From positions 24,908-88,907 of the forward strand of contig SORU01000001.1 in the NCBI GenBank assembly GCA_004402915.1: a DNA stretch of 64,000 nucleotides, read 5' to 3'. The notes under the pieces are model-generated. The model made no database searches. It saw only the letters and a program-made list of their open reading frames with translations, and was not told the DNA's origin. The position numbers and the translations under genes were made by a program. This DNA comes from Fidelibacterota bacterium MT.SAG.2 (GTDB taxonomy: Bacteria > Fidelibacterota > SORT01). This document shows, one piece after another, positions 11,127 through 46,447 of the stretch; positions within the stretch are counted from its first letter, which is position 1; each line of letters begins with the position of its first letter.

Positions 11127-11134
11127 ATGAACGG

Positions 11135-13060: not shown

Positions 13061-13174
13061 TGGGAATCAATTGCTGTATTGTAAAACAGTATATGAACTA
13101 ACTATCTGAATTTGAAATAAAATAAGTCAAAACATTTATTCAAAAATTTCGTAATTATTTAGGTTGCATAAATT

Positions 13175-32915: not shown

Positions 32916-33377
32916 TTACCTCGAAAAAGTCCCCATGAGCTTCGCTTCGGCGAGAATATGTTCCTGCATCTCGTTTTCGAGAGTACTTTTGTCAGCATCG
33001 CCCGTGAGTGTCAACATTGTGTCGAGCGCGTAAAGTTTGAAGAAGTAGCGATGCGGGTCTCCGGGCGGCGGGCACGGACCGCCGTAGCTTTTTTTCTCCC
33101 ACGAGTTAAGCCCCTGTTTTGAACCGTCGGTCAGTGACTCGTCGGTCGGAACAGCTTCGGATAACCCTTCGGAGTCTGCCGGAATGTTAAAGATAAGCCA
33201 ATGATCCCACGTACCCATAGGCGCGTCTGGGTCATCGCAAATGAGGGTAAAGCTCTTCGTTCCTTTGGGCGTATCGCTCCAGATGAGCTGCGGCGAGATG
33301 TCCTCACCTTCGCAAGTGTATTTATCGGGAATTCTATCCCCTTCGTTGAAAGCGCTGCTTGATATTGAAAGGCTCAT
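32916..33377 (-). CDS. YbhB/YbcL-type phosphatidylethanolamine-binding protein (PEBP) family
   Basis: ISPQLIWSDTPKGTKSFTLICDDPDAP...GGPCPPPGDPHRYFFKLYALD are classic bacterial PEBP motifs. Confidence 0.8.
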   Translation of the reverse strand: MSLSISSSAFNEGDRIPDKYTCEGEDISPQLIWSDTPKGTKSFTLICDDPDAPMGTWDHWLIFNIPADSEGLSEAVPTDESLTDGSKQGLNSWEKKSYGGPCPPPGDPHRYFFKLYALDTMLTLTGDADKSTLENEMQEHILAEAKLMGTFSR

Positions 33378-33457
33378 TGTTTAATCCTCCGAATCGTTGT
33401 TACAACCGAATATACGAATTAGAAGTATAAATAATCGAATATTCATATATTAGTGCG

Positions 33458-33518
33458 AGTCGGGGCTTGCCCTGACCGCACGGTTATTTCTGTTTAGGCA
33501 TCAGGGCAAGCCCCGACT
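33458..33518. repeat. 18-bp perfect inverted repeat AGTCGGGGCTTGCCCTGA ... TCAGGGCAAGCCCCGACT around a 25-nt loop (REP-like element)
   Basis: Read directly. Lies about 80 bp upstream of the PEBP gene start, in a divergent intergenic region. Confidence 0.6.
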
Positions 33519-33605
33519 GCCACAGAAAAATTGATACTTCTTTCGCGATTTAAGAGCCAAGTCTGATTCGTTGACATTCGGCAGCTGCTTACGTAAGTTT
33601 TACAA

Positions 33606-34217
33606 ATGAAAAAGCTCTTTTGCTTATTAATACCACTATTACTAACGGGTTGCGACGCTATTTTCGGTACGAGGGAGCCGGAGGAACCGGACGAAAACAT
33701 CAGCAGAAGTCTGTGGCAGCAGCCGACCTCTCCGGGAATTGTATTGGAAAATCTTAAAAACGCATTCTCAGAACGGAACGAGGAGAACTATCTTCGTTCT
33801 CTTGCCGATTCTACGAGTTCCGAGAGAGTGTTCCTATTTATTCCCAGCCAGGAAGCAGCGGTAAACAATCCGGGCGCTTTTGAAGGTTGGGGGTTAAACG
33901 AAGAGAGAGTATATATCAACTTGCTTTTTTCCGAATCCTCTCTTCCGGAGGGAGTAATATCGTCGTTGGAATTCACCCGTTTTGAAGAACCTTCCATACC
34001 GTCGGATAGCGCTCTATTTGAAGAGATCTATGAACTCGAACTTGAGCATACTCTGGAAAACGTTCCTCCTAAGATGATGGGAATCGCTAAGTTCAGGATG
34101 GCGCGAAGCGATGACGGAAATTGGTCTATATACAGATGGGAGGATCTTGCTTTCAGCAATGACAATGACACGTTAGACCTGCCTACGTGGAGTGAACTGA
34201 AGGCTCGTGTACAGTGA
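33606..34217 (+). CDS. hypothetical lipoprotein
   Basis: Lipobox LLTGCDA. 203 aa, acidic. No motif. Confidence 0.45.
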   Translation: MKKLFCLLIPLLLTGCDAIFGTREPEEPDENISRSLWQQPTSPGIVLENLKNAFSERNEENYLRSLADSTSSERVFLFIPSQEAAVNNPGAFEGWGLNEERVYINLLFSESSLPEGVISSLEFTRFEEPSIPSDSALFEEIYELELEHTLENVPPKMMGIAKFRMARSDDGNWSIYRWEDLAFSNDNDTLDLPTWSELKARVQ

Positions 34218-34765
34218 AACAATTTTTTTTATTTGGAATGATGCTCTTCTCTCTGACCTATGGATGCGCAAATCCCTTTGCGCCGAAATTAGGCGAGGTG
34301 GAAAAGGGAACCGCAGCCATATTAACAGAACGTCTCAGCCCGAACGAGGTCTTGGAAAACTTTAGATTTGCTTACATCTTCGGTGACTCTCTTGTTTACA
34401 GCGAGTTGATTGATACAGCATTCTTATTCCTTTACTTCGACCCCAATGTGGAGGGTACAGGCAGATTCGACAGTTGGGGAAGGGATATAGAATTGAGGGC
34501 AACGGGCGGTCTATTCCGGGCAGTCCGCAATATTACACTTGAATGGAACAGCACGATCGAAGAGAAATATTGGTCACCCTCTCCCGATTCGGTTTTAGCG
34601 AGTGTAGAATTTGAAGGAGCAATAAGCGCGAAAATATCCAAAGGATTCCAACTGAAACTCGGCTCTGAAATTCAGCTTGCCGGCACGGCGGTTTTTTCCT
34701 TTGAAAAGGAAAACAGGGGAGATGGTTGGAGGATAGTGAGGTGGGTCGATGAATCGATCTTCTAA
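34214..34765 (+). CDS. hypothetical lipoprotein
   Basis: Lipobox LTYGCAN. 183 aa. 4-nt overlap with the upstream gene. Confidence 0.45.
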   Translation: MKQFFLFGMMLFSLTYGCANPFAPKLGEVEKGTAAILTERLSPNEVLENFRFAYIFGDSLVYSELIDTAFLFLYFDPNVEGTGRFDSWGRDIELRATGGLFRAVRNITLEWNSTIEEKYWSPSPDSVLASVEFEGAISAKISKGFQLKLGSEIQLAGTAVFSFEKENRGDGWRIVRWVDESIF

Positions 34766-35804
34766 GAAACGAATACTCATCTTGGTTGTTCTGTTTTTGA
34801 TAATAGACGCAGCTATCATTTTCCGCATATATTTTAGAGATGAGACTTCTCCTTTCAGAGGTTTTGCAAATTTGGATAGTTATCTGCAAGGGGAATTCAG
34901 CTCGTCATTGAAGGAGAAGGGTCTGATTATCAATCAAGAATCAACCGATGGAAATCTCTACATGAGATACAGAAAAGGTTACGGCAAATATTGGCTGGAA
35001 AGGGTGATCAGACAATCATTGTCGCCTTCAGGTTTAATATCGGAATTTGATTGGAATGTAAATAACGGGTTTAACGTTATATTGACCCATCCTATAGAGG
35101 GAAATCGAACTCTGAAATTCAGAGAGGATGAAAGAAAAAAAGGCGGCTTAATTTGTATAATCATTGATGATTTCGGATATTTTTGGGATGAGCGCGTAGA
35201 TGAGCTGATGAGTTTTGATATTCCGATGGCATTTGCCGTGATCCCCGGCCATGAATACTCGGAGCGGATAGCGAAAAGCGCTGATTCAAACGGGAAAGAG
35301 CTGCTGCTGCATCTTCCGATGGAGGCGTTTGAGCATCAGGGCGGTGAGGATGAATATATAATTAAGTATAATATGGATATCGAGGAGATAGAATCGCGCG
35401 TTTCAAAGGCATTAGAGACAGTCCCGGGCGCATCCGGAATAAATAATCATCAAGGTTCAAGGGTGACGGCGGATTCTGAAACATTTCAGAGATTTCTTGC
35501 CGTAATAAGTCCGTATAACTTATATTTTATCGACAGCGTGACCCACTCTTCAAGTGTGGCGTTCAGGGATGCGCAAAATGCAGGTGTGCCTGCAGGAAGA
35601 CGGACTGTTTTTTTAGATGATTCAGAGGATGAAAAAACTATCGATTACAGAATCGAGCAATTAAAAAATAGAGCTCACAAAAATGGTAATGCCATCGGTA
35701 TAGGTCATATTAATAGTGAAACCATCATGGCATTGAAAAACCGAATTCCATTTTTGATTGAAGAGGGATATCTGTTTGTATATCCTTCACAATTAGTGAA
35801 CTAA
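34749..35804 (+). CDS. divergent polysaccharide deacetylase (YibQ family), membrane anchored
   Basis: N-terminal TM helix. GGLICIIIDDFGY...MAFAVIPGHEYSERIAKSADSNGKELLLHLPME is typical of the YibQ-type family. Confidence 0.7.
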   Translation: MNRSSKKRILILVVLFLIIDAAIIFRIYFRDETSPFRGFANLDSYLQGEFSSSLKEKGLIINQESTDGNLYMRYRKGYGKYWLERVIRQSLSPSGLISEFDWNVNNGFNVILTHPIEGNRTLKFREDERKKGGLICIIIDDFGYFWDERVDELMSFDIPMAFAVIPGHEYSERIAKSADSNGKELLLHLPMEAFEHQGGEDEYIIKYNMDIEEIESRVSKALETVPGASGINNHQGSRVTADSETFQRFLAVISPYNLYFIDSVTHSSSVAFRDAQNAGVPAGRRTVFLDDSEDEKTIDYRIEQLKNRAHKNGNAIGIGHINSETIMALKNRIPFLIEEGYLFVYPSQLVN

Positions 35805-35825
35805 CAGATCTATTAGAGGTATAAT

Positions 35826-36515
35826 ATGGCATTATTAGAGGTAAGGTTGGATGCAGTGGCGGCGATGAGGGACCTGATAGGTGACTCGATCGACCCGGTA
35901 AAATCGGCTGTGGTTGCTGAACTCGCAGGCGCCGACGGGGTGGGGATAAAACTCACCGATGATAGAGAAGAAGAACGGATGAGAGATCTTTCTCTGTTAC
36001 AGGAAATAGTGAATTCACGGCTGAACTTAATTATAAATTCATCGAAGAGACAGGTAGATAAAGCACTTGCCGTTTCAGCTGCCATGGTTACTTTGTATGA
36101 CGATGTGGGCTTAGCGGATTCTAAGGTCATCGCCTCAATGAAAGAAGCAATATCTGTATTGAAAAATAACAAGAATCTTGCAATATCGATCAAGATTAAC
36201 CCTGAAGTCACGGAAGCAAAAGCGGCATCCCGGTTAGGCGCGGATTATGTTGAAATAGATACATCAAGATTCGCGTTGACCAAAGATTATCATGACAGAA
36301 CGATGGAGTTGGAACGGATCGCCGCGGTCGCTCGGGCAGCGTTCAAATTTGATCTTATGGTCTCCGCCGGAGGTGATCTCTCATATCAGAATGCAGCTTA
36401 TATAGCTGAGATTGAACAGGTTGACAGCGTTTCAATTGGAAAAGCCATTATCAGCCGAGGTCTGCTTGTCGGATTGGAAAATGCCGTCCGAGATGCTCTT
36501 GATCTCGTGAAATGA
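35826..36515 (+). CDS. PdxJ (pyridoxine 5'-phosphate synthase) family protein with active-site histidines substituted
   Basis: Aligns with PdxJ throughout (LEVRLDAVAAMRD vs LGVNIDHIATLRN; AELAGADGVGIKLTDDREE vs AEQAGADGITVHLREDRRH; VSAGGDLSYQN vs VNAGHGLTYHN; SIGKAIISRGL vs NIGHAIIGRAV). The conserved His residues are replaced by A, T, G and K. Confidence 0.6.
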   Translation: MALLEVRLDAVAAMRDLIGDSIDPVKSAVVAELAGADGVGIKLTDDREEERMRDLSLLQEIVNSRLNLIINSSKRQVDKALAVSAAMVTLYDDVGLADSKVIASMKEAISVLKNNKNLAISIKINPEVTEAKAASRLGADYVEIDTSRFALTKDYHDRTMELERIAAVARAAFKFDLMVSAGGDLSYQNAAYIAEIEQVDSVSIGKAIISRGLLVGLENAVRDALDLVK

Positions 36516-36581
36516 GCTAGATAAAAATTCCTGTCAAAGAGTAATCCCATTCTGACCATTAACGTATATCGCAATGATGTA

Positions 36582-37511
36582 GTGGAGAGTAGTCACTCCG
36601 CAAGCGCAGTGATTATCGATCCAAGTGGTGAGATTCTTGCGGAGTACGGCGATAGTCAGATGCGTACATATATTCGATCAGCTGCAAAACCATTCCAGAT
36701 CATGCCGGCGCTTGAATTAGGTTTTCAATCGAAATTCGGTTTGAGTGATGAGGAGATAGCCGTTTGTTGTTCTTCGCATTCCGGAGAAACTGTCCATATA
36801 GAGAGAGTGCAGAGTGTTTTGCAAAAAACAGAAATAGATCCCTCTTCACTCAGGTGCGGAATACATCCTCCTTTGGGAGTGGAAGTGAGGCGAATGTTAA
36901 GAGTCTCCGGTGAGACTCCTACCGTGCTTCATAACAATTGCTCCGGTAAGCACTCGGCAATGCTCGCGACTGCAAAGATCAAAGGAGAGTCCCTTGAAGA
37001 TTATCTGAATCCTGATCATCCTGTCCAGCAGAGGATATTAGAAGTAATTGAAGAATTTTCAGAGGAAGAAAACATACATATAGGAGTCGATGGATGTTCA
37101 GCGCCCGTATATTATCTTCAAATTAAAAGTATTGCGATGATGTATCAAAAATTAGCTTCGGATAATGATAATGTGACCGTCAGCGATGTATGGGAGAAGA
37201 TGACATCAAATCCGCTTATGATAGCGGGAAGTGGACGGTTCGACAGCATACTGATGGAGGACGGGAAGGGAACTTTGTTGTCGAAGATGGGAGCTGAGGG
37301 AGTACAGTGCATGTCGCTTAAAACTCCGGCGGGTCCGGTAGGCTTGGCAGTGAAGGTGCATGACGGTACGCGCAGGGCTGTTCTTCCGGCTGTGTTATAC
37401 TTATTGGACAAATTCGGTTTTACTCCTGACGGCAACTATGATAGATTTAGAAAGCCTGAACTAAAAAACCATATGGGACTCATAGTAGGCAGGATAGAAG
37501 TCAGTGAGTAA
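36582..37511 (+). CDS. asparaginase-II family (Rhizobium-type) protein
   Basis: TYIRSAAKPFQIMPALELG and later GCSAP motifs fit the L-asparaginase II family. GTG start. Confidence 0.6.
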   Translation: MESSHSASAVIIDPSGEILAEYGDSQMRTYIRSAAKPFQIMPALELGFQSKFGLSDEEIAVCCSSHSGETVHIERVQSVLQKTEIDPSSLRCGIHPPLGVEVRRMLRVSGETPTVLHNNCSGKHSAMLATAKIKGESLEDYLNPDHPVQQRILEVIEEFSEEENIHIGVDGCSAPVYYLQIKSIAMMYQKLASDNDNVTVSDVWEKMTSNPLMIAGSGRFDSILMEDGKGTLLSKMGAEGVQCMSLKTPAGPVGLAVKVHDGTRRAVLPAVLYLLDKFGFTPDGNYDRFRKPELKNHMGLIVGRIEVSE

Positions 37512-37554
37512 TGGTCGGCGCAAAATTTTGCGATCTGATTCTTTAATATTCGTA

Positions 37555-37585
37555 TTGACAAGCATGTAGAACATGATTAGATTTG
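37555..37585 (+). promoter_or_regulatory. Bacteroidetes-type sigma-A promoter (TTG ... 20 nt ... TAGATTTG)
   Basis: TTGACA at 37555 and TAnnTTTG-like -7 box TAGATTTG at 37578-37585, about 50 nt upstream of the 37638 start. The spacing fits the Bacteroidetes consensus. Confidence 0.35.
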
Positions 37586-37637
37586 TGAGCCGGAAATATG
37601 GATTATATGAATTCAAGCATAGGATAACTACGAGTAA

Positions 37638-39881
37638 ATGATTCGTTATAGTAATTTTGTTCTGCTTTTTTTATTGTTTTTTGCGCAAACTTTAGAACTT
37701 AAAGCGCAACAGAGAGATAGAGCATCACGTCTTAGAAAAGCGGCGGTAGAACAAGCAAGGGCAACTGATATCGGAGCATTGGGTCTCACCATTACAAATT
37801 ACGGTACTTTAGGTGACGCATTTGTAGTACAACCTCTGAAAGACCTGCCATCGGCTGAATATCCGCTCGGTTCCGGGATTGAACATATGTTTGCCGGAGG
37901 ATTATGGGTAGGAGCGAAAACTTCATTAGGACAACTATTGGTAACAACGGGCGCGGTAGATGTCTCAAGTGCTGCTACACGTGTCACATCAGGTTTTGAA
38001 TTCACCAATACGGCAGATCCTGCAGATAAGCTGTTGGAACGTTCTACGATTATTGAATCACCCTTTTTTAGCCTTGACGCGATCAGTCACCAAGATTTTA
38101 TAGGCGATTTTGCAGACACAAATAAGACCATACCTGTCGTCGGTCTTGATCCGAACGAATGGGAGACTATCGCTGATCATAATCCTTTAGGAATTGACGT
38201 GCACTTAGAAACTTATGCTTGGAATTTTCCATTTGCTGATGCATTTGTAATACTGAACTATAGGATACGGAATGTCCGGGCGGATAGAACTCCTCTCGAA
38301 GATATTTATGTCGGGATTTGGGCTGATCTCGTTGTTAGAAATGTAAATGTCGCAGGATCAAAAAATGCCGATTTTTACAGTCATGTCGCCAGCGGATATA
38401 TTGATTCTCTTCAAATGGCTTATGCTTTCGATTACGATGGCGATCCCGGATTTACCGATGACGGTCTGTATATTGCGTTGAAGTTGATAGGCGCAACCGC
38501 ACAACCGACCGATGACGTTTATCGGTTTAAAACAAGGTACAACACCTGGTTCTTTAGGAATAACGATGATCCGTTTTTCTTTTCTCCTACGACAGATTCG
38601 TGGAACGGACCGGTACAGGGTCGCTATCAGAAAATGTCTATAGATAGTTTAATTACTGCGAATGATATTGTCCCGCTATTGGGAGGTCCGGGCAATTTTA
38701 TGACGCTCATTACTACGGGTCCGTTTGATTCTTTAGCTTGGGGTCTTGGAGAGGACTTGAACGGCAACTGGATTCTTGATTATGAATATGATGCCACCAC
38801 AGGTGAATTGATATTTACGGAGGATGCAAATGGAAACGGTTATTTGGATTCCGGTATCAACGTTGTATTTGTAATGGTAGCGGCATCAAAAGCAGGTACT
38901 GATGATAGAACGGAAGATACAATGGCGTCAAAAGCCAATCTTTTTACGAATGCATCATGGGCGACGAGGGCTTATGATGGCGAGGACAAGAACAAAAACA
39001 ACAGACTCGATGAGGGAGAAGATATCATCAACCCCGGTATTCTCGACCGTTATCTCCTTCCGACTCCACCGCTCTCTCCGAAGGTAAAAATTATACCGGG
39101 CGACGGTGAGGTGGATATTTATTGGAATAATAAATCTAAATTTTCAGTTGATCTGCTTTCGGGAGAAAAGGATTTTGAGGGCTACAGGGTATATAGAACA
39201 ATAGTTGCCGCAGATGGAGCGGGTAGTAATCTCTTAGGAACATTTTCGCCGATTTTACAAGTTGATAAAATTAATTTGATCGGATATGATACGGGCTTTG
39301 ATGTTATCGAGTTGAAGGAGCCTATTACATTTCCGGGAGATACAACCGCTTATCAATACTGGATAAAAGACACAAACCTTAATAACGGTTGGCAGTATGC
39401 GTACGCCGTTACCGCTTTTGACAGAGGGGATGCAGCGAATAATCTGGGCAGCTTGGAGACTTCCAAAAGACCGACAACCGTGAACGTGTTCCCCGGCGCT
39501 GCGCCGACTTCGACGAGGACTGATTCAAAAGTCGGAGTATATCCCAATCCATATAGGGTCAATGCCAGGTGGGATGGGTCTTTAGAACGCGATAGGAAGC
39601 TGTATTTCTTCGATCTTCCGGCGGAATGTGAAATACGAATTTATACAATGACCGGTGATCTTGTGGATAGAATAGAACATAGTGCCGCTACATACGCCGG
39701 TGAGGACATACAATGGTTTGAATCCTTTGCAACGGGAACGCCCAAATTTTCAGGCGGAGAACATGCATGGAATCTTGTAAGCAAAGATGATCAGGCTATC
39801 GCAACGGGATTGTATATTTATACCGTTAAGGACCATTCCAACGGTAATATACAGCGAGGCAAGTTTTTAGTTATTAAATAA
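37638..39881 (+). CDS. secreted protein with T9SS type-A C-terminal sorting domain, function unknown
   Basis: Signal peptide ELKA|QQRD. C-terminus VYPNPYRVNARWDG...GLYIYTVKDHSNGNIQRGKFLVIK matches the T9SS CTD pattern. Confidence 0.6.
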   Translation: MIRYSNFVLLFLLFFAQTLELKAQQRDRASRLRKAAVEQARATDIGALGLTITNYGTLGDAFVVQPLKDLPSAEYPLGSGIEHMFAGGLWVGAKTSLGQLLVTTGAVDVSSAATRVTSGFEFTNTADPADKLLERSTIIESPFFSLDAISHQDFIGDFADTNKTIPVVGLDPNEWETIADHNPLGIDVHLETYAWNFPFADAFVILNYRIRNVRADRTPLEDIYVGIWADLVVRNVNVAGSKNADFYSHVASGYIDSLQMAYAFDYDGDPGFTDDGLYIALKLIGATAQPTDDVYRFKTRYNTWFFRNNDDPFFFSPTTDSWNGPVQGRYQKMSIDSLITANDIVPLLGGPGNFMTLITTGPFDSLAWGLGEDLNGNWILDYEYDATTGELIFTEDANGNGYLDSGINVVFVMVAASKAGTDDRTEDTMASKANLFTNASWATRAYDGEDKNKNNRLDEGEDIINPGILDRYLLPTPPLSPKVKIIPGDGEVDIYWNNKSKFSVDLLSGEKDFEGYRVYRTIVAADGAGSNLLGTFSPILQVDKINLIGYDTGFDVIELKEPITFPGDTTAYQYWIKDTNLNNGWQYAYAVTAFDRGDAANNLGSLETSKRPTTVNVFPGAAPTSTRTDSKVGVYPNPYRVNARWDGSLERDRKLYFFDLPAECEIRIYTMTGDLVDRIEHSAATYAGEDIQWFESFATGTPKFSGGEHAWNLVSKDDQAIATGLYIYTVKDHSNGNIQRGKFLVIK

Positions 39882-39926
39882 GTAACGCAAGGATTTATAA
39901 TTATAATAAAAATCGGAGGCAACAAG

Positions 39927-41960
39927 ATGAAATCGCTACAGTTAATATTATTATGCGGAGTTATACTAAGCACATCCATTGCATTTTCGCAAACATATCC
40001 GCTAAAAACATTTAGAGAGGTACAGGAACCTACTGATATGAGCGTCACCGATGCTTCTCCTCTCTTGGGAGATACAATACGTGTAAGCGGTGTAGCCGCC
40101 ACCGGTCCCCGTGATATCTGGATCGGAGCACGGTGGTCTTTTTTTCTTGTAGATACGGCTGGCGGTCCCTGGAGCAGCTTGCAAATTGTACAGCATGACT
40201 CTTTTGCGACAGATACAGATGTCGGGTTAGTAGAGCCGGGATTCGGTATCATAGTGACGGGAATAGTAGAAGAATTTCAAAGTGCCACGCAGCTGGCAGT
40301 TCTTACGAACCCGGTTGTGGCGGTGGAATTCATAGATCAGATCACATTGGGAACATTTCCACAGAGACCGGTTGAGATTAGCATGGAGCTGTTGCAAGAT
40401 ACATCAACAGGTGAACAGTATGAGGAGGTATTGGTAAAGCTCTCAAACGTGATCATGCTAAATAACGATGTAGGTAGTGGTGAAGCGTTGATAGGATCAT
40501 CCGACGGCGCTTTTCAGATATCGTTAGAGGATTGGAATAGAGAGATCTATGATTGTTTTCAAGCCAATAGCTGCAGCTGGCCGCCAAACAGCTTTCCGAT
40601 GGATGTTGTCGGGTACATAAGAGATAAGACTAATGATGCACCGGGAGCCAGATTTATGATAGCCCCATGGAGCTTAGATCTGCCTTATATTGATGTGCTT
40701 GCCAAGCCGCCTATAATTTCCAATATACTTCGTGATCCGGCCGTGCCTTCAAGTACAGATGCAGTTACAGTTACCGCCGGTATTCTCGACGATGGGGCTG
40801 TTGAGGCTGCTTCACTCCATTACAGCGTTGACAATGGAGCGTATGTGGAAGTGCCTATGTCTTCACCGAGTCCTGACTTTTATTCCGGGACCGTTCCGGC
40901 GCAAAGTGAAAACTCATTGGTAAAATATTATATAAACTCGATCGATGATGAAGAGTTTGGTTCGATCTCTCCCGGAGATACTGCACGGGCGCCATTGTTT
41001 TACATAGTTCGTGACGGCGCTCTCACTATTCATGACATACAGTATAATCCGTTCGGCAGCAGCAATTCCGGTTATGAGAATATGGAAGTAACAACGACTG
41101 GAATCGTCACATCCGATTCCATACAATATGGGAACTATTGGATTCAGGATGGTAATGGAGCCTGGAGCGGTCTTCAAATAAATGATTTCCTGAATAATCC
41201 GAGCCCGGGAGATTTGGTTCAAGTGACAGGCATTGTGAATGAAAATTTCGGGTTCACTCGATTGGATGCCATCGTCAGCGGCAGCTATTCTGTCCTGAGC
41301 ACAGGCAATCCAGTTCCTGAACCGAGGGTTTTCAGTACGGGAGATATAAACACTAACGCCGATAGCGCTGAGGCATATGAGAGTGTTTTAATTGAGGTTC
41401 GTGATGTCATCGTAAGTAATGAGTTACCCGATGATCCGGGTAATTTCGGTGAGTTTTCAGTGGATGACGGTTCCGGAGAGATACGAGTCGATGATCTCTC
41501 TCCTGTCTTCGACGGAAACAATAATCTTGAATACTCAAACGGTGACACCATAATATATTTACGCGGATACCTGCTTTGGTCGTTCGGTAACTTTAAAATA
41601 GTACCAAGAGATACAAATGATGTGGAAAGGGGCGGCAAATTTATTTCAGTGAAAGACGAAGGCGGTATAATGCCCGAAGAGTATATGCTCTCGCAAAACT
41701 ATCCGAATCCGTTCAACCCTCAGACCGAAATAAACTATTCACTTCCGGTGACGGGTGAAGTGAGGCTGACAGTCTATAATCTACTTGGTCAGAGGGTAGT
41801 GACCATTGTTAATGAGATTCAGCAAGCCGGTAATTACAGGGCTTCATGGAATGGACATGATGAATTCGGAAAGTCAGTTTCAAGTGGAATTTACCTGTAT
41901 AACCTGAATGTGAGTAACGGTAAATTCTCCGAGACCAAAAAAATGTTGCTGTTAAAGTAA
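39927..41960 (+). CDS. secreted protein with canonical T9SS type-A C-terminal sorting domain, function unknown
   Basis: Signal peptide IAFS|QTYP. C-terminus LSQNYPNPFNPQTEINYSLPVTGEVRLTVYNLLGQRVVTIVNE...GNYRASWNG...SSGIYLYNLNVSNGKFSETKKMLLLK. Confidence 0.7.
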   Translation: MKSLQLILLCGVILSTSIAFSQTYPLKTFREVQEPTDMSVTDASPLLGDTIRVSGVAATGPRDIWIGARWSFFLVDTAGGPWSSLQIVQHDSFATDTDVGLVEPGFGIIVTGIVEEFQSATQLAVLTNPVVAVEFIDQITLGTFPQRPVEISMELLQDTSTGEQYEEVLVKLSNVIMLNNDVGSGEALIGSSDGAFQISLEDWNREIYDCFQANSCSWPPNSFPMDVVGYIRDKTNDAPGARFMIAPWSLDLPYIDVLAKPPIISNILRDPAVPSSTDAVTVTAGILDDGAVEAASLHYSVDNGAYVEVPMSSPSPDFYSGTVPAQSENSLVKYYINSIDDEEFGSISPGDTARAPLFYIVRDGALTIHDIQYNPFGSSNSGYENMEVTTTGIVTSDSIQYGNYWIQDGNGAWSGLQINDFLNNPSPGDLVQVTGIVNENFGFTRLDAIVSGSYSVLSTGNPVPEPRVFSTGDINTNADSAEAYESVLIEVRDVIVSNELPDDPGNFGEFSVDDGSGEIRVDDLSPVFDGNNNLEYSNGDTIIYLRGYLLWSFGNFKIVPRDTNDVERGGKFISVKDEGGIMPEEYMLSQNYPNPFNPQTEINYSLPVTGEVRLTVYNLLGQRVVTIVNEIQQAGNYRASWNGHDEFGKSVSSGIYLYNLNVSNGKFSETKKMLLLK

Positions 41961-41977
41961 AAGAATATGACCATTAT

Positions 41978-42001
41978 CCCCTCCTTTGATAAAAGGAGGG
42001 G
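41978..42001 (+). terminator. hairpin CCCCTCCTTT-GATA-AAAGGAGGGG after the cargo gene (possible terminator)
   Basis: 10-bp perfect stem read directly. No strong U tract follows. Confidence 0.3.
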
Positions 42002-42028
42002 AAGGTGGGCTTACCTTTATAACAATAA

Positions 42029-43591
42029 ATGATAGATAAAAAATATAAAATGAAACGAGTTTTACTTCTCGCAGCGCTGGCTATGGTGACACTCTCCTGT
42101 GATGACAGCATTGTGGATGTTCTAAAAGAAAACAAAGCTCCCGTAGTTTCTGTTTTTCTGTCGGCAGACTCGGTTGAATCGCTCAACAGAACTTCGAGCA
42201 ATCAGATATTGTATTGGGACGGAAAAGACCCTGATGGATTGGTTGTCGGGTTTTATTACACTTTTGGAAATACAGATAATCCTTCTAATTGGGTTTTTCT
42301 TGATGATTCGACAGCTGAAGGACCTGAGTTAATGAATAGCGACAGCGCCAATTGGCGGTTCACGACAGCCCGATCCGACACGTTTTCATTGGAGATACTT
42401 ACAGACACAGTCACCTACACATTCAGCGTTCTTGCAGTTGATGATCAAAATAAATTGAGCGATGAACCGGCGAGTATAAAACTGCCGATCAAAAATTCCA
42501 GACCGGAGCTCTTCTTCTTAAACGAAGTAGATTTTTCAAGCTCGACGGTGAAGATCCCGGACAGAACCTTTACAATCGCTTCATTCGCATGGGTTGTCAC
42601 GGACCTGGACGGCGAAGATACCATAGACAAATTTCAATATGCTATAACCGACAGTGGATCTACGGCTGATACAATATGGGTCGACATTAGTCCGACTAAA
42701 AGATCGATAATACTATCGGGTACACAATATGAAACCGATGCGGATGTGACATTCGATGACAGGATGACTGAGGGTCTTCACGCTTTCCACCTACGTGCTG
42801 TAGATGTTGCCGGCGCCGCGAGCGATACCAAAAGACTTCCGGAAGATGAGGAAGAATATTGGTACGTCGAAGAGCCTGCGAGAGACATACTGCTCGTTGA
42901 TGATTGGGCTACAAACTCGTCTGACGGAAGAGCGCTTTATACGCAAATATTGGACTCTCTGCGCAGCATAAAGGCGGGAAGAGAATATTCGATCTTAAAC
43001 CTCAAGCCTCAAAATTCAGAATATTTACTCTCTAAATCCGCGTTGAGGGAGACGATAAAACTATTTAAAGCGGTCATTTGGTATTCGGATGTCAATCCGA
43101 AATTAGATGAAGCATCTGTAGCGCTCGGTGATTACAGTAAAAATGGCGGGAAAGTTATATTCTCCACCCTGTTCTCTCAATTCGGAAGCAACAGGGGTGA
43201 CCCGCTTGAATTCACGCCTGTAGACAGTTTTGATGTTATAAGGGACACTACTTCAAATGCACGGGAAGTGGGATTAATATTTCGAAGCTGGAATGTTGCT
43301 GTTTGGCCTGATACATTGATTACCGCTGAATTTCCGGATACTTTGCTTCCCGATTTTGCCCAATTTGCATCAATAATTCCGTCACCGAAAATGCTTGTAC
43401 CAAAATCCTCTTCACGGGTCTTATACCGGTATCAGGCATTACCACGGAGATATGCCGGAATGCCGGCTGTGATTGTTGAGGATGCTAATAAGTCGTTCAT
43501 TCTCTGCAGCATTCCGCTGCACTATTTTAACGGCGGTAAGAACTTAGGTAAATTGATAGATCTCTTTCTAACAACAGAGTTTGGATTGTAG
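42029..43591 (+). CDS. hypothetical lipoprotein (Ig-like N-terminal repeats, alpha/beta C-terminal part)
   Basis: Lipobox VTLSCDDS. 520 aa. Stop is 10 nt before the TBDR start. The true start is probably the MKRVLLL Met at 42050. Confidence 0.45.
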   Translation: MIDKKYKMKRVLLLAALAMVTLSCDDSIVDVLKENKAPVVSVFLSADSVESLNRTSSNQILYWDGKDPDGLVVGFYYTFGNTDNPSNWVFLDDSTAEGPELMNSDSANWRFTTARSDTFSLEILTDTVTYTFSVLAVDDQNKLSDEPASIKLPIKNSRPELFFLNEVDFSSSTVKIPDRTFTIASFAWVVTDLDGEDTIDKFQYAITDSGSTADTIWVDISPTKRSIILSGTQYETDADVTFDDRMTEGLHAFHLRAVDVAGAASDTKRLPEDEEEYWYVEEPARDILLVDDWATNSSDGRALYTQILDSLRSIKAGREYSILNLKPQNSEYLLSKSALRETIKLFKAVIWYSDVNPKLDEASVALGDYSKNGGKVIFSTLFSQFGSNRGDPLEFTPVDSFDVIRDTTSNAREVGLIFRSWNVAVWPDTLITAEFPDTLLPDFAQFASIIPSPKMLVPKSSSRVLYRYQALPRRYAGMPAVIVEDANKSFILCSIPLHYFNGGKNLGKLIDLFLTTEFGL

Positions 43592-43600
43592 GATCAGGGA

Positions 43601-46447
43601 GTGAAAATAAATTTCTTAAATCTGGAAATCAGTTTGACAGCAATTCTGCTGCTGACATTTTTAATCGGCGGAGATCTTCTCGCTCAACCGAGGGGGCAGC
43701 TAAGCGGACGGGTTATTGACTCCGAGAACGGAGAACCGATGCCGGGAGTAAATATAGTTTTGCCGGGAACCTATCACGGCGCCGCTTCCGGTCTCGACGG
43801 TGAATTTTCGATTAGAGGTGTCAGCGCCGGCGAGTATACCGTGAGATTTCAGTTTATCGGTTATACAACAGTCGAGGTAACCGGTGTGAAGATAACCGCG
43901 GGTCTGACTCGGACTCTTAACGCAGAAATGAACCAGACCGTGTTAGCGGCGGGACAGGAAATAGTGGTTATAGGAAAGAAAGCCCTCTTTGACATTGAAG
44001 AGACAGCAAGCCGCAGGGCGATCTCTGCGGATGAAATTGCCAATTCGGTAGTTGAAAGCACGCAAGATATTGTAGGAAATCAGGTCGGCGTTGTGATGTC
44101 TGATAATGAAATTCATATCAGAGGAGGTAGGTCGTATGAAAACGCGTATCTGCTCGACGGAATATCTATTCAGGACCCCCTGTCGGGAACAGGATTCGGA
44201 CTGCAGCTCAGCACAAATGCGATTGAAGAGATTGAAATTATAACGGGTGGATTCGCCGCAGAATATGGGCAGGCGATGTCAGGAATCATCAACGTTAAAA
44301 CAAAACAAGGCACGGATATATATCACGGATCCCTTTCTTATAAAACGGATAACTTTGGATTGTATGACAGCAGTTCACAATTCAATTTTAACACGGATGT
44401 TGTTGAAATGAGCATTGACGGACCCGATCCTTTTTTCGGAGTTTTGTTCCCGATGTTAGGGTTTGATCTCCCCGGCAAGCAGACTTTCTTCGCAAACAGT
44501 TACATGTTCATTTCAGATGACTTTACGAAATTCTCAGCGGATACGCTGATTTCTTCCACATTTCATGGTATAAAATACGCGCCACGGCAAAATAATAATT
44601 GGTCCGCAATGCTCAAGTACACCTGGACCATTACGCCTAAGCACAAATTGCAATATACTTATAATGCTTCTGTGAGCATAAATCAGAATACACAGAGCCT
44701 GCAATCAAATTTGGAATTTGTCCCGCCGGGTCCCGGCTATCCGTATCGGTTCCAAAACAATCTGAATAATTTTAATACATTCACCCATTTGAATCGTCAA
44801 ACCGGGTTGGGGTGGACACATACGTTAGGCTCAAGAACATTTTATGAGGTAAAGCTCAGTAATTTCTTCACTAATCTTCGAAGTGACGTTGGCGGAAAGC
44901 TCTGGAATGAGTTTATCGAACCGAAGGATATCGTCACATTTCCTATAGTGTATATAGACACTGATACAAATAGGATATTGGTATTTCCCGGAGATGGTTT
45001 TTACGATTTCGGGAACGGAGACACTTGGCACGACCATTGGGTGGACGAGTATACGCTAAAAGCGGACATTACTCACCAGAAGAACGAACGTCAGGAGATC
45101 AAGGCGGGAGTGGAGCTTTCATATCAGGAGATGCAGCTATTCGATATCCTGAATCCCTGGGAAGGACCGTTAGGAAAGAACAACGATTTTTATAAGGTTT
45201 ACCCAAGCTTCGGCGGAATTTATATTCAGGAAAAAATAGTGATGCAGGGACTTGTAGCGAATATAGGTCTTAGATTTGATTATTGGTTTCCCGGCAAATA
45301 TGTGGAACGCGCCGTAGCTGATACCAATATCGTTACGATCTCACCCGGTACGAGAACAGCTTTTGAAAATGATACCTTCGGTCTGTTCGGAAGACGATGG
45401 AAAGGGCGTATAAGCCCGAGATTAGGGATCTCTCATCCGGTGTCGGATAAACAGGTACTCTTCTTTAGTTATGGGCATTTCTCCAAAAGACCGAAACCAC
45501 AATTTGTGTACGCAAAACTCGGCAAAATTTCATCCAAAACTTCATCCCCTGTCTTCGGCAATCCGAATCTTGATCCTGAGACTACCGTTTCCTATGAACT
45601 TGGAGTGAAGAATCGCTTTACCGAAGATGACGTGCTTACAATTACAGCGTTTTACAAGGATATCTTTGATTACATCACTACCATTCCTGTACCCGGAACC
45701 GGCAGATTCAGGAAGCAGACATTCATTACATATTTAAACCTTGATTACTCCAGGGTCAGGGGCATAGAGATGGAATATAGAACGAGGGCGGGCACTCATC
45801 TCTCGGGTTCTGTAAACGGTTCATATTCTATCTCTACAGGTAAAAGCTCCTCTCCCGATGATGCCGCTCTTGTCCAGCGGGGCGATCGACCGGAGAGAAG
45901 GATCACCGAGGATTTTCTAATATGGGACAGACCTTGGCAAGGATCTATAAATTTGAATTACCGTATTACAGAAGGGAATAATCCCGAACTGTTCGGCATA
46001 AAACTGCCGGATAAATGGAATCTGAACTTCCGTTACTTTGCTCAGGCAGGCAAGCGTTACAGACCTATAGTGGCTACCGGCGATTCTCTTCGAAACAACA
46101 GACCTATATATACGCGTGATATAGATGGTGATGGTTACGATGATGATATTTACGCTAATGTTGCCGAACATTGGGCTTGGGCAAATCTAAATATCGAGAA
46201 ATGGTATAACGTCGGCGGAAAAGAGGTTTCCATATTTTTGGAAGTGCTGAATCTTTTCAACAGGAAAAATTCAAATATTATTAATCCTGTTACAGGAAGA
46301 GCATATGAATTAGGAGATCCGACACCAACAAGCTGGAACGATCCATTATTCCCTGAAACCCAAGCGCCGGTTTCTCCGTTTCCGTTTAACCCCGCCCGGT
46401 ACCTAAACCAAAGAAACTTGAAGGTCGGAGTTAGATTTGTCTGGTAA
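43601..46447 (+). CDS. TonB-dependent receptor-type outer-membrane barrel with N-terminal CarbopepD-regulatory-like domain
   Basis: Signal DLLA|QPRG. GRVIDSENGEPMPGVNIVLPGTYHGAASGLDGEFSIRGVSAGEYTVRFQFIGY is CarbopepD_reg. Plug motif EIHIRGGRSYENAYLLDGISIQDPLSG. C-terminal GVRFVW. Confidence 0.75.
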   Translation: MKINFLNLEISLTAILLLTFLIGGDLLAQPRGQLSGRVIDSENGEPMPGVNIVLPGTYHGAASGLDGEFSIRGVSAGEYTVRFQFIGYTTVEVTGVKITAGLTRTLNAEMNQTVLAAGQEIVVIGKKALFDIEETASRRAISADEIANSVVESTQDIVGNQVGVVMSDNEIHIRGGRSYENAYLLDGISIQDPLSGTGFGLQLSTNAIEEIEIITGGFAAEYGQAMSGIINVKTKQGTDIYHGSLSYKTDNFGLYDSSSQFNFNTDVVEMSIDGPDPFFGVLFPMLGFDLPGKQTFFANSYMFISDDFTKFSADTLISSTFHGIKYAPRQNNNWSAMLKYTWTITPKHKLQYTYNASVSINQNTQSLQSNLEFVPPGPGYPYRFQNNLNNFNTFTHLNRQTGLGWTHTLGSRTFYEVKLSNFFTNLRSDVGGKLWNEFIEPKDIVTFPIVYIDTDTNRILVFPGDGFYDFGNGDTWHDHWVDEYTLKADITHQKNERQEIKAGVELSYQEMQLFDILNPWEGPLGKNNDFYKVYPSFGGIYIQEKIVMQGLVANIGLRFDYWFPGKYVERAVADTNIVTISPGTRTAFENDTFGLFGRRWKGRISPRLGISHPVSDKQVLFFSYGHFSKRPKPQFVYAKLGKISSKTSSPVFGNPNLDPETTVSYELGVKNRFTEDDVLTITAFYKDIFDYITTIPVPGTGRFRKQTFITYLNLDYSRVRGIEMEYRTRAGTHLSGSVNGSYSISTGKSSSPDDAALVQRGDRPERRITEDFLIWDRPWQGSINLNYRITEGNNPELFGIKLPDKWNLNFRYFAQAGKRYRPIVATGDSLRNNRPIYTRDIDGDGYDDDIYANVAEHWAWANLNIEKWYNVGGKEVSIFLEVLNLFNRKNSNIINPVTGRAYELGDPTPTSWNDPLFPETQAPVSPFPFNPARYLNQRNLKVGVRFVW

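What the first reader, a model, noticed from the sequence alone, without database searches (positions are those of the whole stretch)
35826..36515. PdxJ-family protein lacking the conserved catalytic histidines (possible pseudoenzyme or neofunctionalised paralog)
The ORF aligns along its full length with pyridoxine-5'-phosphate synthase. Every conserved His I can place from the E. coli enzyme is substituted: NIDHIATLRN becomes RLDAVAAMRD, ITVHLREDRRH becomes IKLTDDREE, NAGHGLTYHN becomes SAGGDLSYQN, and NIGHAIIGRA becomes SIGKAIISRG. The TIM-barrel scaffold and the Gly-rich phosphate-binding stretches are kept. This points to a PdxJ-derived protein that no longer makes PNP. It sits between a YibQ-type deacetylase and an asparaginase-II-family gene.
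Basis: partly seen in the sequence, partly recalled or inferred. Interest (0 to 1): 0.55.

Follow-up and report, generated by a model that had tools for sequence, protein, structure and literature searches.

The report
Catalytically stripped PdxJ-fold protein in Marinimicrobia
This gene encodes a well-folded, strongly conserved relative of the vitamin-B6 enzyme PdxJ that has lost almost every residue needed to make the vitamin, belongs to an old family spread through the marine phylum Marinimicrobia, always travels with a cell-wall deacetylase gene, and is widely mislabelled in databases as a working B6 synthase.

Summary
ORF 35826-36515(+) (229 aa) is a full-length PdxJ-family protein: Pfam E=4e-43, and the AlphaFold2 model matches PdxJ crystal structures at TM 0.94. 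It fails every NCBIfam PdxJ equivalog cutoff. Only 2 of 11 canonical active-site residues survive (D11, E153); H12, H45, H52, H193, H216, E72, R20, R47 and N9 are replaced and the T102/T103 loop is deleted. The protein has a single histidine, outside the pocket, so no realignment can rescue it.

It is not a pseudogene: dN/dS is 0.02-0.08 and there are no indels down to 50% identity. It belongs to an ancient PdxJ-like family with at least three deep lineages, two of them labelled Marinimicrobia, that share F133->R/K, H193->G and a shortened loop 4. In the two lineages whose context I could check, the gene lies directly downstream of a YibQ/SddA-type peptidoglycan deacetylase, usually followed by an asparaginase-II-like gene.

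In the window's clade the former active-site columns are less conserved than the rest of the protein, which favours a scaffold or pseudoenzyme role over a new enzyme, though only modestly. I found no published description. I could not check whole genomes for a canonical pdxJ/pdxA or pdxST. Verdict: new variant of a known kind; interest about 0.55.

The parts
33606..34217 (+). Lipoprotein gene 'lipoA' (203 aa, lipobox LLTGC). First gene of the conserved cassette.
   Evidence: ORF; lipobox; no Pfam or NCBIfam match. Homologue in the same position in L015 (43% identity), L001, L012, L014 and L026.
34214..34765 (+). Lipoprotein gene 'lipoB' (183 aa, lipobox LTYGC). It overlaps lipoA by 4 nt.
   Evidence: homologues in L015 (47% identity), L001, L012, L014, L023 and L026.
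34749..35804 (+). YibQ/SddA-type divergent polysaccharide deacetylase (351 aa). It has an N-terminal membrane anchor, and the aligned Zn-ligand positions (DD...H...H) are kept.
   Evidence: PF04748, E=1e-64; matches 2nly at E=2e-27 with IIIDDFG / LHLPME / NNHQGS aligned. E. coli YibQ=SddA is a periplasmic GlcNAc deacetylase of denuded glycan strands with Zn ligands D31, D32, H78, H123 (PMC12440217). It lies immediately upstream of the PdxJ-like gene in every lineage A and B locus that extends upstream, except L026.
35815..35819 (+). Shine-Dalgarno-like AGAGG, 6 nt before the ATG. The gap to the YibQ stop codon is only 21 nt.
   Evidence: Sequence read. Promoter-like and terminator-like sites in 33300-37800 are no more frequent than in shuffled sequence.
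35826..36515 (+). PdxJ-fold protein (229 aa) lacking the PNP-synthase active site. This is the finding.
   Evidence: Pfam PF03740, E=4e-43; below all NCBIfam equivalog cutoffs. AlphaFold2 pLDDT 91.9; TM 0.94 and rmsd 1.8 A to PdxJ 3f4n, 5dlc, 1ho1. dN/dS 0.016-0.082.
35844..35879 (+). beta1/loop-1 segment: R7 (E. coli N9), D9 (D11, kept), A10 (H12), R15 (R17, kept), I18 (R20).
   Evidence: Alignments; codon positions checked.
35949..35972 (+). beta2 and first phosphate site: K42 (H45), T44 (R47), E48 (R51), E49 (H52). Position 42 varies K/R/S/E/T/A within the clade.
36024..36032 (+). beta3: N67 (N70, kept in all lineages) and I69 in place of the general acid/base E72. This position is R in lineages B and C and in P0019.
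36099..36119 (+). Shortened loop 4 (residues 92-98, DDVGLAD). The canonical PEKRQEVTTEGGL loop with T102/T103 is about 8 residues longer.
   Evidence: Alignments; G105-L107 are deleted in all three lineages.
36192..36194 (+). K123 at the position of F133, which is invariant in canonical PdxJ. R/K here is a shared derived character of the family.
   Evidence: F in 100% of 42 canonical sequences; R in 100% of lineages B and C; R/K in lineage A except P0019.
36252..36263 (+). beta6: E143 (E153, kept as E or D), D145 (H155), T146 (T156, kept).
36291..36293 (+). H156, the only histidine in the protein. It lies in helix alpha6 and aligns to E. coli A166, outside the catalytic face.
36372..36377 (+). 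beta7 loop: G183 in place of H193 (Gly in 100% of all three lineages) and D184 in place of G194.
36438..36443 (+). beta8 loop: G205 (G215, kept) and K206 in place of H216. This position is R in lineages B and C.
36582..37511 (+). Asparaginase-II (class 3) family gene, 309 aa from the first available start codon. SAAKP, CSGKH and DGC motifs are matched in the alignment. It is a frequent but not obligatory member of the cassette.
   Evidence: PF06089, E=6e-104. Matches R. etli ReAV 7os3 at E=1e-46 with these motifs matched in the alignment. Present in L001-4, L007, L008, L012-16, L020-22, L024 and L027-29; absent in L006 and L017.

Best explanation
The gene encodes a cytoplasmic protein derived from PdxJ. 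It keeps the PdxJ (beta/alpha)8 barrel but cannot make pyridoxine 5'-phosphate. It is retained as a non-catalytic (pseudoenzyme-type) scaffold or binding protein.

Shown:
- The fold is PdxJ.
- Nine of eleven canonical active-site residues are replaced, and the T102/T103 lid loop is deleted. The replaced residues include the acid/base E72, H45 and H193, and the whole first phosphate site (R20, R47, H52, H12).
- The protein is under strong purifying selection.
- It belongs to an ancient family with at least three deep lineages, two of them labelled Marinimicrobia. The lineages share F133->R/K, H193->G and a short loop 4, while keeping D11, N70 and E153.
- In lineages A and B the gene sits in a conserved same-strand cassette: lipoprotein, lipoprotein, YibQ/SddA peptidoglycan deacetylase, PdxJ-like, and usually an asparaginase-II-like gene.
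- In the window's own clade the former active-site columns are less conserved than the rest of the protein.

Inferred:
- An ancestor of the family lost PNP-synthase chemistry and remodelled the barrel mouth into an Arg-rich pocket (R72, R133, R216, with T45, D11, N70, E153). Lineages B and C still keep this pocket.
- The window's clade then let much of that pocket drift (I/V69, variable 42 and 206). Selection there now acts mainly on the scaffold and surfaces.
- The likely function is oligomeric or partner binding, or low-specificity anion binding, co-expressed with envelope and cell-wall remodelling genes. It is not catalysis.
For: Family and fold: Pfam PF03740 E=4e-43 over the full length. 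AlphaFold2 pLDDT 91.9, pTM 0.88. Foldseek top hits are all PdxJ at TM 0.94, rmsd 1.8 A; the next TIM barrels (ThiE, TrpC) reach only about TM 0.7.

Loss of the active site. The protein has one His in total. All six NCBIfam PdxJ equivalogs are below cutoff, best 135.5 against 190. The same positions are 100% conserved in 42 canonical cluster representatives.

Functional constraint: dN/dS is 0.016-0.082 wherever dS is unsaturated. All clade members are exactly 229 aa down to 50% identity, and 78 of 229 positions are invariant.

Family: lineage A, lineage B and lineage C (21 clusters, several named Marinimicrobia or Neomarinimicrobiota) share the signature.

Cassette: YibQ lies directly upstream in the window, L001-4, L006-8, L010, L012-18, L020-23, L025 and L027-29, with the PdxJ-like protein only 31-32% identical in the most distant of these.

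Pocket relaxation in lineage A: mean conservation of the 15 a-priori active-site columns is 0.68 against 0.80 for all columns (lower tail about 0.01). With a reduced alphabet it is 0.80 against 0.88 (P=0.03). Canonical PdxJ gives 0.99 against 0.61 (P<1e-4). Position 42 (H45) varies K/R/S/E/T/A within the clade.
Against: No activity or binding was measured.

D9, N67, E/D143, T146, G183, G205, a basic residue at position 7 and a basic residue at position 123 are conserved in the clade. A reduced functional pocket is therefore not excluded.

The pocket-relaxation test is modest. It rests on 15-19 columns, and P rises to 0.07-0.10 if the outlier P0019 is removed.

Lineages B and C keep their pocket columns at or above the protein average. 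That suggests the family as a whole still uses the pocket.

I have no evidence for any physical partner. The cassette mixes compartments: lipoproteins and YibQ are exported, while the PdxJ-like and asparaginase-like proteins are cytoplasmic. Conserved gene order may therefore reflect co-regulation only, as with gpmM in the E. coli gpmM-envC-sddA operon.

Pseudoenzymes can have migrated catalytic residues (PMC10211241).
Confidence: 0.5

Rival explanations
1. Neofunctionalised barrel. The protein still uses the barrel mouth to bind, and perhaps transform, an anionic or phosphorylated small molecule other than DXP/AHAP. It would use the retained D9, N67, E/D143 and T146, the Gly loops (G182-G183, G205) and the new basic residues (R/K7, K/R123, K206). 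The step could be a cytoplasmic one linked to cell-wall or amino-sugar turnover, alongside the SddA-type deacetylase and the asparaginase-like amidohydrolase.
For: D11, N70 and E153 are kept in all three lineages. F133->R/K and H193->G are fixed. In lineages B and C the pocket residues T45, R72, R133, E153, G193 and R216 are 92-100% conserved down to 41% identity, and the pocket columns are at or above the protein average. In lineage A a basic residue at position 7 appears where R72 is lost, and P0019 has both, which may be charge relocation. The operon with two hydrolases is conserved.
Against: In the window's clade the pocket columns are less conserved than the rest of the protein. Positions 42, 69 and 206 vary non-conservatively. 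In part of lineage B even G215 and R17 are lost. YibQ is predicted to be periplasmic while this protein has no signal peptide, so a shared substrate is not obvious. No candidate chemistry can be named.
Confidence: 0.3
2. Regulatory pseudoenzyme partner of a real PdxJ encoded elsewhere in the genome. It would form hetero-oligomers with the active enzyme, by analogy with plant PDX1.2 and PDX1.
For: PdxJ is oligomeric (established knowledge from the crystal structures). The C-terminal GLENAVRD helix and other scaffold helices are conserved between the canonical and degenerate forms. PDX1.2 is a precedent in the other B6 pathway.
Against: There is no canonical pdxJ in the 64 kb window. None appears next to any family member in 30 loci. 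No canonical PdxJ labelled Marinimicrobia surfaced in any search. Identity to canonical PdxJ is only about 30-40%, so interface conservation is doubtful.
Confidence: 0.1
3. It is still a genuine PNP synthase and the organism's only one. It would use a different constellation of residues, that is, migrated catalytic residues.
For: NCBI and JGI pipelines annotate many members as 'pyridoxine 5'-phosphate synthase'. D11 and E153 are kept. The window encodes IspD, a MEP-pathway gene, so DXP is probably made (by homology with the window's 62840-63532). Migration of catalytic residues is known in some apparent pseudoenzymes.
Against: Nine of eleven residues are lost, including both phosphate-binding arginines, all five histidines and E72, and the lid loop is deleted. 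The replacements are not conserved within the clade, so they cannot be substitute catalysts. All NCBIfam equivalog scores are far below cutoff. No pdxA or pdxH is nearby.
Confidence: 0.05
4. A decaying relic: a pseudogene in the making after loss of the DXP-dependent pathway, with no function.
For: Catalytic residues have been lost wholesale, and the pocket columns are more variable than average.
Against: dN/dS is 0.016-0.082. There are no frameshifts, stops or indels across members down to 50% identity. Length is preserved (229-232 aa) across lineages that are about 30% identical. A good ribosome-binding site is present. The AlphaFold2 model is confident.
Confidence: 0.02

Closest known systems
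Pyridoxine 5'-phosphate synthase PdxJ (E. coli P0A794; PDB 1ho1, 1m5w; Pfam PF03740; TIGR00559)
   Same: Same fold and family: full-length Pfam match, TM 0.94 and rmsd 1.8 A, 29-32% identity. The scaffold residues D11, R17, P27, G38, N70, E153, T156, L195, N199, G215, R221 and G226 are kept in the window protein.
   Different: It lacks N9, H12, R20, H45, R47, H52, E72, H193 and H216 and the T102/T103 loop. F133 is replaced by Lys. It falls below all curated equivalog cutoffs. Its gene context is different: yibQ/sddA rather than acpS, glmM or pdxA. It almost certainly does not catalyse the PdxJ reaction.
Plant PDX1.2, the non-catalytic homologue of PLP synthase PDX1/PdxS
   Same: It is a homologue of a vitamin-B6 biosynthetic TIM-barrel enzyme that has lost catalytic residues yet is conserved. 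It is therefore a precedent for a pseudoenzyme in B6 metabolism (mentioned in the papers found).
   Different: It comes from an unrelated family (PdxS of the DXP-independent route, not PdxJ) and is eukaryotic. It works by hetero-oligomerising with active PDX1. No active PdxJ partner is known here.
Other degenerate PdxJ-family proteins in metagenomes (for example Zixibacteria P0020, P0031, P0038)
   Same: They are PF03740 members lacking many catalytic residues. Of the 140 nearest 50%-identity cluster representatives, 79 keep 6 or fewer of the 11. E72->R and H193->G recur among them.
   Different: They sit in other contexts: after ksgA, after glmM, or after cdaA-ybbR. In a rough NJ tree they do not group with the Marinimicrobia clade. 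None has been characterised either.
E. coli gpmM-envC-sddA (yibQ) operon
   Same: An SddA/YibQ-type peptidoglycan deacetylase gene is co-transcribed with a gene for a cytoplasmic protein from a metabolic-enzyme family (PMC12440217).
   Different: There the cytoplasmic partner is an active phosphoglycerate mutase, and EnvC is present. Here the partner is a stripped PdxJ homologue, and no EnvC/M23 gene is in the cassette.

Membership tests
PdxJ (PNP synthase, EC 2.6.99.2) | PdxJ-type (beta/alpha)8 barrel fold | tested here: met
   AlphaFold2 pLDDT 91.9. Foldseek top 16 hits are all PdxJ structures, TM 0.84-0.95.
PdxJ (PNP synthase, EC 2.6.99.2) | Pfam PF03740 match above the gathering score | tested here: met
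   147.7 bits against a cutoff of 24.5, covering profile positions 2-233 of 234.
PdxJ (PNP synthase, EC 2.6.99.2) | Score above the curated equivalog (same-function) cutoff of NCBIfam TIGR00559 / NF003623-NF003627 | tested here: not met
   Best score 135.5 against 190; TIGR00559 scores 107.4 against 192.75. All six models are below cutoff.
PdxJ (PNP synthase, EC 2.6.99.2) | Catalytic acid/base and imine-chemistry residues E72, H45 and H193. The residue roles come from the E. coli PdxJ structure literature and rest on my own knowledge. | tested here: not met
   They are I69, K42 and G183. These positions are 100% conserved in 42 canonical representatives.
PdxJ (PNP synthase, EC 2.6.99.2) | First phosphate site: R20', R47, H52, D11/H12 | tested here: not met
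   They are I18, T44, E49 and A10. Only D9 (D11) is kept.
PdxJ (PNP synthase, EC 2.6.99.2) | Second (standard TIM-barrel) phosphate site: G194, G215, H216 | tested here: inconclusive
   G205 (G215) is kept, G194->D184 and H216->K206. Backbone-amide binding might survive. In part of lineage B, G215 is N or D.
PdxJ (PNP synthase, EC 2.6.99.2) | Active-site lid loop 4 with T102/T103 | tested here: not met
   The loop is about 8 residues shorter, and G105-L107 are deleted in all three lineages.
PdxJ (PNP synthase, EC 2.6.99.2) | Co-occurrence with pdxA and pdxH in the genome (DXP-dependent pathway) | not testable with these tools
   None is present in the 64 kb window or in the 20 kb flanks of relatives. 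Whole genomes could not be scanned.
PdxJ (PNP synthase, EC 2.6.99.2) | PNP synthase activity, or complementation of a pdxJ mutant | not testable with these tools
   Needs an experiment.
Pseudoenzyme (a conserved homologue of an enzyme that lacks the catalytic motifs) | Catalytic motifs are absent while the protein is under purifying selection | tested here: met
   2 of 11 catalytic residues are kept. dN/dS is 0.016-0.082 with no indels.
Pseudoenzyme (a conserved homologue of an enzyme that lacks the catalytic motifs) | No special constraint on the former active site | tested here: inconclusive
   In lineage A the pocket scores 0.68 against 0.80 overall (lower tail about 0.01). With a reduced alphabet P=0.03, and without P0019 P=0.07-0.10. 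Lineages B and C show the opposite trend.
Marinimicrobia PdxJ-like family (a grouping proposed here) | Shared derived characters F133->R/K, H193->G and a shortened loop 4, with D11, N70 and E153 retained | tested here: met
   The window protein has K123, G183, the short loop, D9, N67 and E143.
Marinimicrobia PdxJ-like family (a grouping proposed here) | Gene immediately downstream of a yibQ/sddA-type deacetylase gene | tested here: met
   In the window there is a 21 nt gap. The same arrangement holds in lineages A and B.

The most novel reading that the evidence does not exclude
Marinimicrobia (SAR406), one of the most abundant deep-ocean bacterial phyla, and some related uncultured lineages may have no functional PdxJ at all. 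What databases call their 'pyridoxine 5'-phosphate synthase' would then be an ancient PdxJ-derived protein family with a remodelled Arg-rich pocket. That family would have acquired a new, still unknown role tied to the SddA-type peptidoglycan deacetylase and to cell-envelope remodelling. It would follow that these organisms are B6 auxotrophs or use another route. It would also follow that pdxJ, currently used as the clean signature gene of the DXP-dependent pathway, hides a large uncharacterised non-catalytic radiation.
Probability: 0.3. Interest if true: 0.7.

Novelty: new variant of a known kind. Interest (0 to 1): 0.55.

Why it matters
(1) Annotation and ecology. Members of this family are labelled 'pyridoxine 5'-phosphate synthase' in NCBI and JGI records. 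A recent pathway survey uses the presence of pdxJ alone as the signature of de novo B6 synthesis (PMC9997740). If the family is inactive, B6 prototrophy of Marinimicrobia is being over-predicted. That affects models of vitamin cross-feeding in the dark ocean.

(2) Protein evolution. This is a clean, ancient example of a TIM-barrel biosynthetic enzyme stripped of its chemistry yet kept under strong selection for a very long time. The pocket was first remodelled (lineages B and C) and then relaxed (the window's clade). This is a natural series for studying how pseudoenzymes arise.

(3) Cell envelope. The tight and long-lived linkage to an SddA/YibQ-type peptidoglycan deacetylase offers a concrete handle for finding the new function.

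(4) Scope. Of the 140 nearest PdxJ-family cluster representatives, 79 lack most catalytic residues. The phenomenon therefore reaches well beyond this gene.

Tried and rejected
- Realignment to rescue the histidines: impossible, because the protein has one His in total.
- Pseudogene: rejected by dN/dS and the absence of indels.
- A catalytic Lys at the H45 position (a Schiff-base idea): rejected, because position 42 varies K/R/S/E/T/A within the clade.
- Asparaginase-II as the obligate partner: rejected, because it is absent in L006 and L017 while YibQ is kept.
- Ancestral synteny with a real pdxJ next to yibQ: not found. The two canonical contexts I could retrieve were glmM-pdxJ-pgpA and pdxJ-acpS. 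The sample is too small to exclude it.
- PLP-pathway genes in the window: none among the roughly 50 ORFs scanned.
- Domain fusions as a functional clue: the long hits are canonical YbeY-PdxJ fusions and are irrelevant here.
- Literature on PdxJ pseudoenzymes or paralogues, or on Marinimicrobia B6 metabolism: nothing relevant.
- Taxon names for degenerate representatives through cluster look-up: none carried a taxon name; two carried only a product name.
- AFDB fold search: library unavailable.
It was repeated with 7 sequences.
- Curated families for the two lipoproteins and the 251-aa protein: none.
- Whole-genome search for canonical pdxJ, pdxA, pdxH or pdxST in the source genomes: not possible with these tools.
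Full report
**1. The observation**

The ORF at 35826-36515(+) is real. It has an ATG start, an AGAGG ribosome-binding site 6 nt upstream, and a TGA stop. It begins 21 nt after the stop of the upstream gene.

It matches Pfam PdxJ (PF03740) from end to end at E=4e-43, 147.7 bits. It aligns with E. coli PdxJ crystal-structure sequences (1ho1, 1m5w) over residues 3-224 at E=2e-26. An AlphaFold2 model built on a 22-sequence alignment is confident (pLDDT 91.9, pTM 0.88) and shows a regular eight-fold beta/alpha barrel. Foldseek places it on PdxJ structures at TM 0.94 and rmsd 1.8 A. The next TIM-barrel families (ThiE, TrpC) reach only about TM 0.7.

**2. The substitutions**

HMMER and three independent MAFFT alignments agree on the mapping below. 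Window coordinates were verified.

| E. coli residue | Window residue | State |
|---|---|---|
| N9 | R7 | replaced |
| D11 | D9 | kept |
| H12 | A10 | replaced |
| R17 | R15 | kept |
| R20 | I18 | replaced |
| H45 | K42 | replaced |
| R47 | T44 | replaced |
| H52 | E49 | replaced |
| N70 | N67 | kept |
| E72 | I69 | replaced |
| F133 | K123 | replaced |
| E153 | E143 | kept |
| H155 | D145 | replaced |
| H193 | G183 | replaced |
| G194 | D184 | replaced |
| G215 | G205 | kept |
| H216 | K206 | replaced |

The loop that carries T102/T103 is about eight residues shorter.

The roles of these residues come from the E. coli PdxJ structural literature and rest on my own knowledge: acid/base E72, H45 and H193, the two phosphate sites, and lid loop 4. 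Their importance is independently supported here. All of them are 100% conserved in 42 canonical PdxJ cluster representatives.

Only 2 of 11 core residues survive. The protein contains a single histidine (H156, in helix alpha6, aligned to E. coli A166), no cysteine and no tryptophan. The proposed refutation by a better alignment is therefore impossible. The protein also falls below the curated same-function cutoffs of all six NCBIfam PdxJ models, with a best score of 135.5 against 190.

**3. It is not a dying gene**

The source is Candidatus Marinimicrobia. A 100% identical protein is recorded from MT.SAG.2, and 99% identity is found in MT.SAG.3.

Nineteen clusters, all exactly 229 aa long, span 50-100% identity. 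Pairwise dN/dS is 0.016-0.082 wherever dS is not saturated. No indels, frameshifts or stop codons occur. In total 78 of 229 positions are invariant. Between the window and a relative at about 80% nucleotide identity, the protein is as conserved (88%) as its neighbours (79-88%).

**4. It belongs to an old family**

An exhaustive HMMER search of 1.84 billion cluster representatives found one close cluster, followed by a drop to 40% identity or less.

Among the 140 nearest full-length representatives, 48 keep at least 10 of 11 catalytic residues and 79 keep 6 or fewer. Degenerate PdxJ-family proteins are therefore common in metagenomes. This sample is biased towards the query and is not a population estimate.

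Two further lineages turned out to be relatives of the window clade:
- Lineage B: P0062, P0111 and P0191-195, all 229 aa, about 31% identical to the window protein.
- Lineage C: P0196-P0216, 230-232 aa, 21 clusters on contigs up to 1.1 Mb. Several are named Candidatus Marinimicrobia or Neomarinimicrobiota.

All three lineages keep D11, N70 and E153. All have Gly at H193, and a basic residue at the canonically invariant F133 (except P0019, which has Gly). All lack G105-L107 of loop 4. Lineages B and C, and the most divergent member of the window clade (P0019), have Arg at E72. Lineages B and C also have Thr at H45 and Arg at H216.

The simplest reading is a single ancient loss of PdxJ chemistry with remodelling into an Arg-rich pocket. 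The window's clade then changed further (E72 position I/V; H216 position K/G/T; H45 position variable). This is an inference. A rough neighbour-joining tree groups lineage A with lineage B and sets the canonical enzymes apart as a compact cluster. The tree is not robust enough to prove monophyly.

**5. Context**

The window cassette is arranged as follows:

| Coordinates | Gene |
|---|---|
| 33606-34217 | lipoprotein (lipoA) |
| 34214-34765 | lipoprotein (lipoB) |
| 34749-35804 | YibQ-type deacetylase |
| 35826-36515 | PdxJ-like |
| 36582-37511 | Asparaginase_II |

All five genes lie on the + strand with overlaps or short gaps. Promoter-like and terminator-like signals are no more frequent than in shuffled sequence.

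The same order recurs in close relatives. It also recurs in loci where the PdxJ-like protein is only 31-32% identical: L015/L016 and L027-L029.

The YibQ gene lies directly upstream in every lineage A or B locus long enough to show it, with one exception. L026 keeps the two lipoprotein genes instead. The asparaginase gene is missing in L006 and L017.

E. coli YibQ was recently characterised as SddA. It is a periplasmic Zn-dependent GlcNAc deacetylase of denuded peptidoglycan strands, encoded in the gpmM-envC-sddA operon (PMC12440217). The window's YibQ keeps the aligned DD/H/H ligand positions and has an N-terminal membrane anchor. The asparaginase-like protein has the SAAKP, CSGKH and DGC motifs matched in its alignment to R. 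etli ReAV.

The PdxJ-like protein has no signal peptide. The cassette therefore mixes exported and cytoplasmic products. Conserved order argues for co-expression, not necessarily for a shared substrate. The E. coli operon, which carries a cytoplasmic glycolytic gene, is a precedent.

Other degenerate PdxJ-likes sit elsewhere: after ksgA in a complete Zixibacteria genome, after glmM, or after cdaA-ybbR. The two canonical genes I could place sit in glmM-pdxJ-pgpA and pdxJ-acpS.

**6. Pocket or scaffold?**

I compared the conservation of the 15 a-priori active-site columns with that of all columns, within each group.

| Group | Pocket columns | All columns | Result |
|---|---|---|---|
| Canonical PdxJ | 0.99 | 0.61 | P<1e-4 that a random set is as high |
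| Lineage B | 0.78 | 0.64 | P=0.018 |
| Lineage C | 0.78-0.82 | 0.70 | P=0.06 (15 columns), 0.002 (19 columns) |
| Lineage A (window) | 0.68-0.71 | 0.80 | lower tail about 0.01 |

With a reduced amino-acid alphabet the directions hold but the significance weakens. Lineage A gives 0.80 against 0.88 (P=0.03), and P=0.07-0.10 without P0019. Lineages B and C give P of about 0.1-0.4.

The family has clearly lost the extreme pocket constraint of the enzyme. In the window's clade, selection falls at least as much on the rest of the protein as on the pocket. This tips the balance towards a non-catalytic scaffold or binding role for this clade, at a confidence of about 0.5. It leaves a reduced anion-binding or catalytic pocket (D9, N67, E/D143, T146, R/K7, K/R123, Gly loops) as a serious rival at about 0.3.

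**7. What could not be done**

It needs whole genomes, which the tools do not expose. No PLP-pathway gene lies in the window or in the 20 kb flanks of relatives. No canonical PdxJ labelled Marinimicrobia appeared in any search. This absence is weak evidence. 'Paralogue' is therefore unproven, and the gene may be the lineage's only pdxJ descendant.

**8. Comparison with what is known, and novelty**

It is a member of the PdxJ fold and Pfam family. It is not a member of the PdxJ functional (equivalog) family. The defining catalytic residues, the first phosphate site, the lid loop and the curated cutoffs were all tested and not met.

I found no description of PdxJ pseudoenzymes or paralogues. A 2023 survey calls pdxJ 'well annotated' and uses it as the signature of the DXP-dependent pathway (PMC9997740). 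The nearest conceptual analogue is plant PDX1.2, in the unrelated PdxS family.

Public annotation of the family is inconsistent, with both 'pyridoxine 5'-phosphate synthase' and 'hypothetical protein' in use.

I rate it a new variant of a known kind, with interest 0.55. It is a solid, extensible lead with ecological relevance (B6 auxotrophy predictions for SAR406) and evolutionary relevance (a staged pseudoenzyme series). Its function remains unknown, and no experiment has been done.

Noticed in passing
window 37503-50846: About 13.3 kb lies directly downstream of the cassette. It holds large secreted T9SS-cargo-like proteins, a PorV-like gene (46437-47429) and an NHL-repeat protein. It is present in the window but absent from the 92-97% nucleotide-identical relative MT.SAG.3 (L012) and from L001, so it is a strain-variable island.
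   Followed up: partly
window 54693-55944: An IS481-like transposase gene (HTH_32 / LZ_Tnp_IS481 / rve_3; ORF 54865-55956) is inserted here relative to L012.
   Followed up: partly
proteins P0032-P0179, not in the window: Of the 140 PdxJ-family 50%-identity cluster representatives nearest the query, 79 keep 6 or fewer of 11 catalytic residues. They occur in several different gene contexts (yibQ-, glmM-, ybbR- and ksgA-linked). This looks like a large uncharacterised non-catalytic radiation of the PdxJ family.
   Followed up: partly
L005 (Zixibacteria CP070796.1) 1722-14540: The degenerate PdxJ-like P0020 follows ksgA. ftsE-ftsX and an M23 (EnvC-like) peptidase gene lie 6-8 kb upstream, and an iPGM gene lies 2 kb downstream. 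The gene set echoes the E. coli gpmM-envC-sddA neighbourhood. This may be coincidence.
   Followed up: no
protein P0025: This is a 131-aa 'Marinimicrobia PNP synthase'. Its last 58 residues are identical to the C-terminus of P0009, but its first roughly 70 residues are unrelated (by eye they resemble ribulose-phosphate 3-epimerase). It is probably a chimeric contig or a truncated fusion.
   Followed up: no
proteins P0048, P0055, P0072, P0114: These are YbeY endoribonuclease-PdxJ fusion proteins of about 400 aa with high-scoring PdxJ halves.
   Followed up: partly
window 3503-10460 and L015 1-1223: A 2012-aa ORF followed by a Peptidase_M28 gene is also found near the cassette in the distant relative L015, where the large protein is annotated SprA_N (a T9SS component). 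This is long-range synteny around the cassette.
   Followed up: no
window 36516-36581; L001 10687-10690: In the 88%-identical relatives the asparaginase-II gene is called with a start that overlaps the PdxJ-like stop by 4 nt (328 aa). In the window the first available start is a GTG 66 nt downstream (309 aa). The coupling between the two genes therefore varies between strains.
   Followed up: partly
window 58915-60739: A split transketolase is present: an N-terminal half of 283 aa and a C-terminal half of 333 aa as two overlapping ORFs. The split is conserved in the relatives L001-L004.
   Followed up: no
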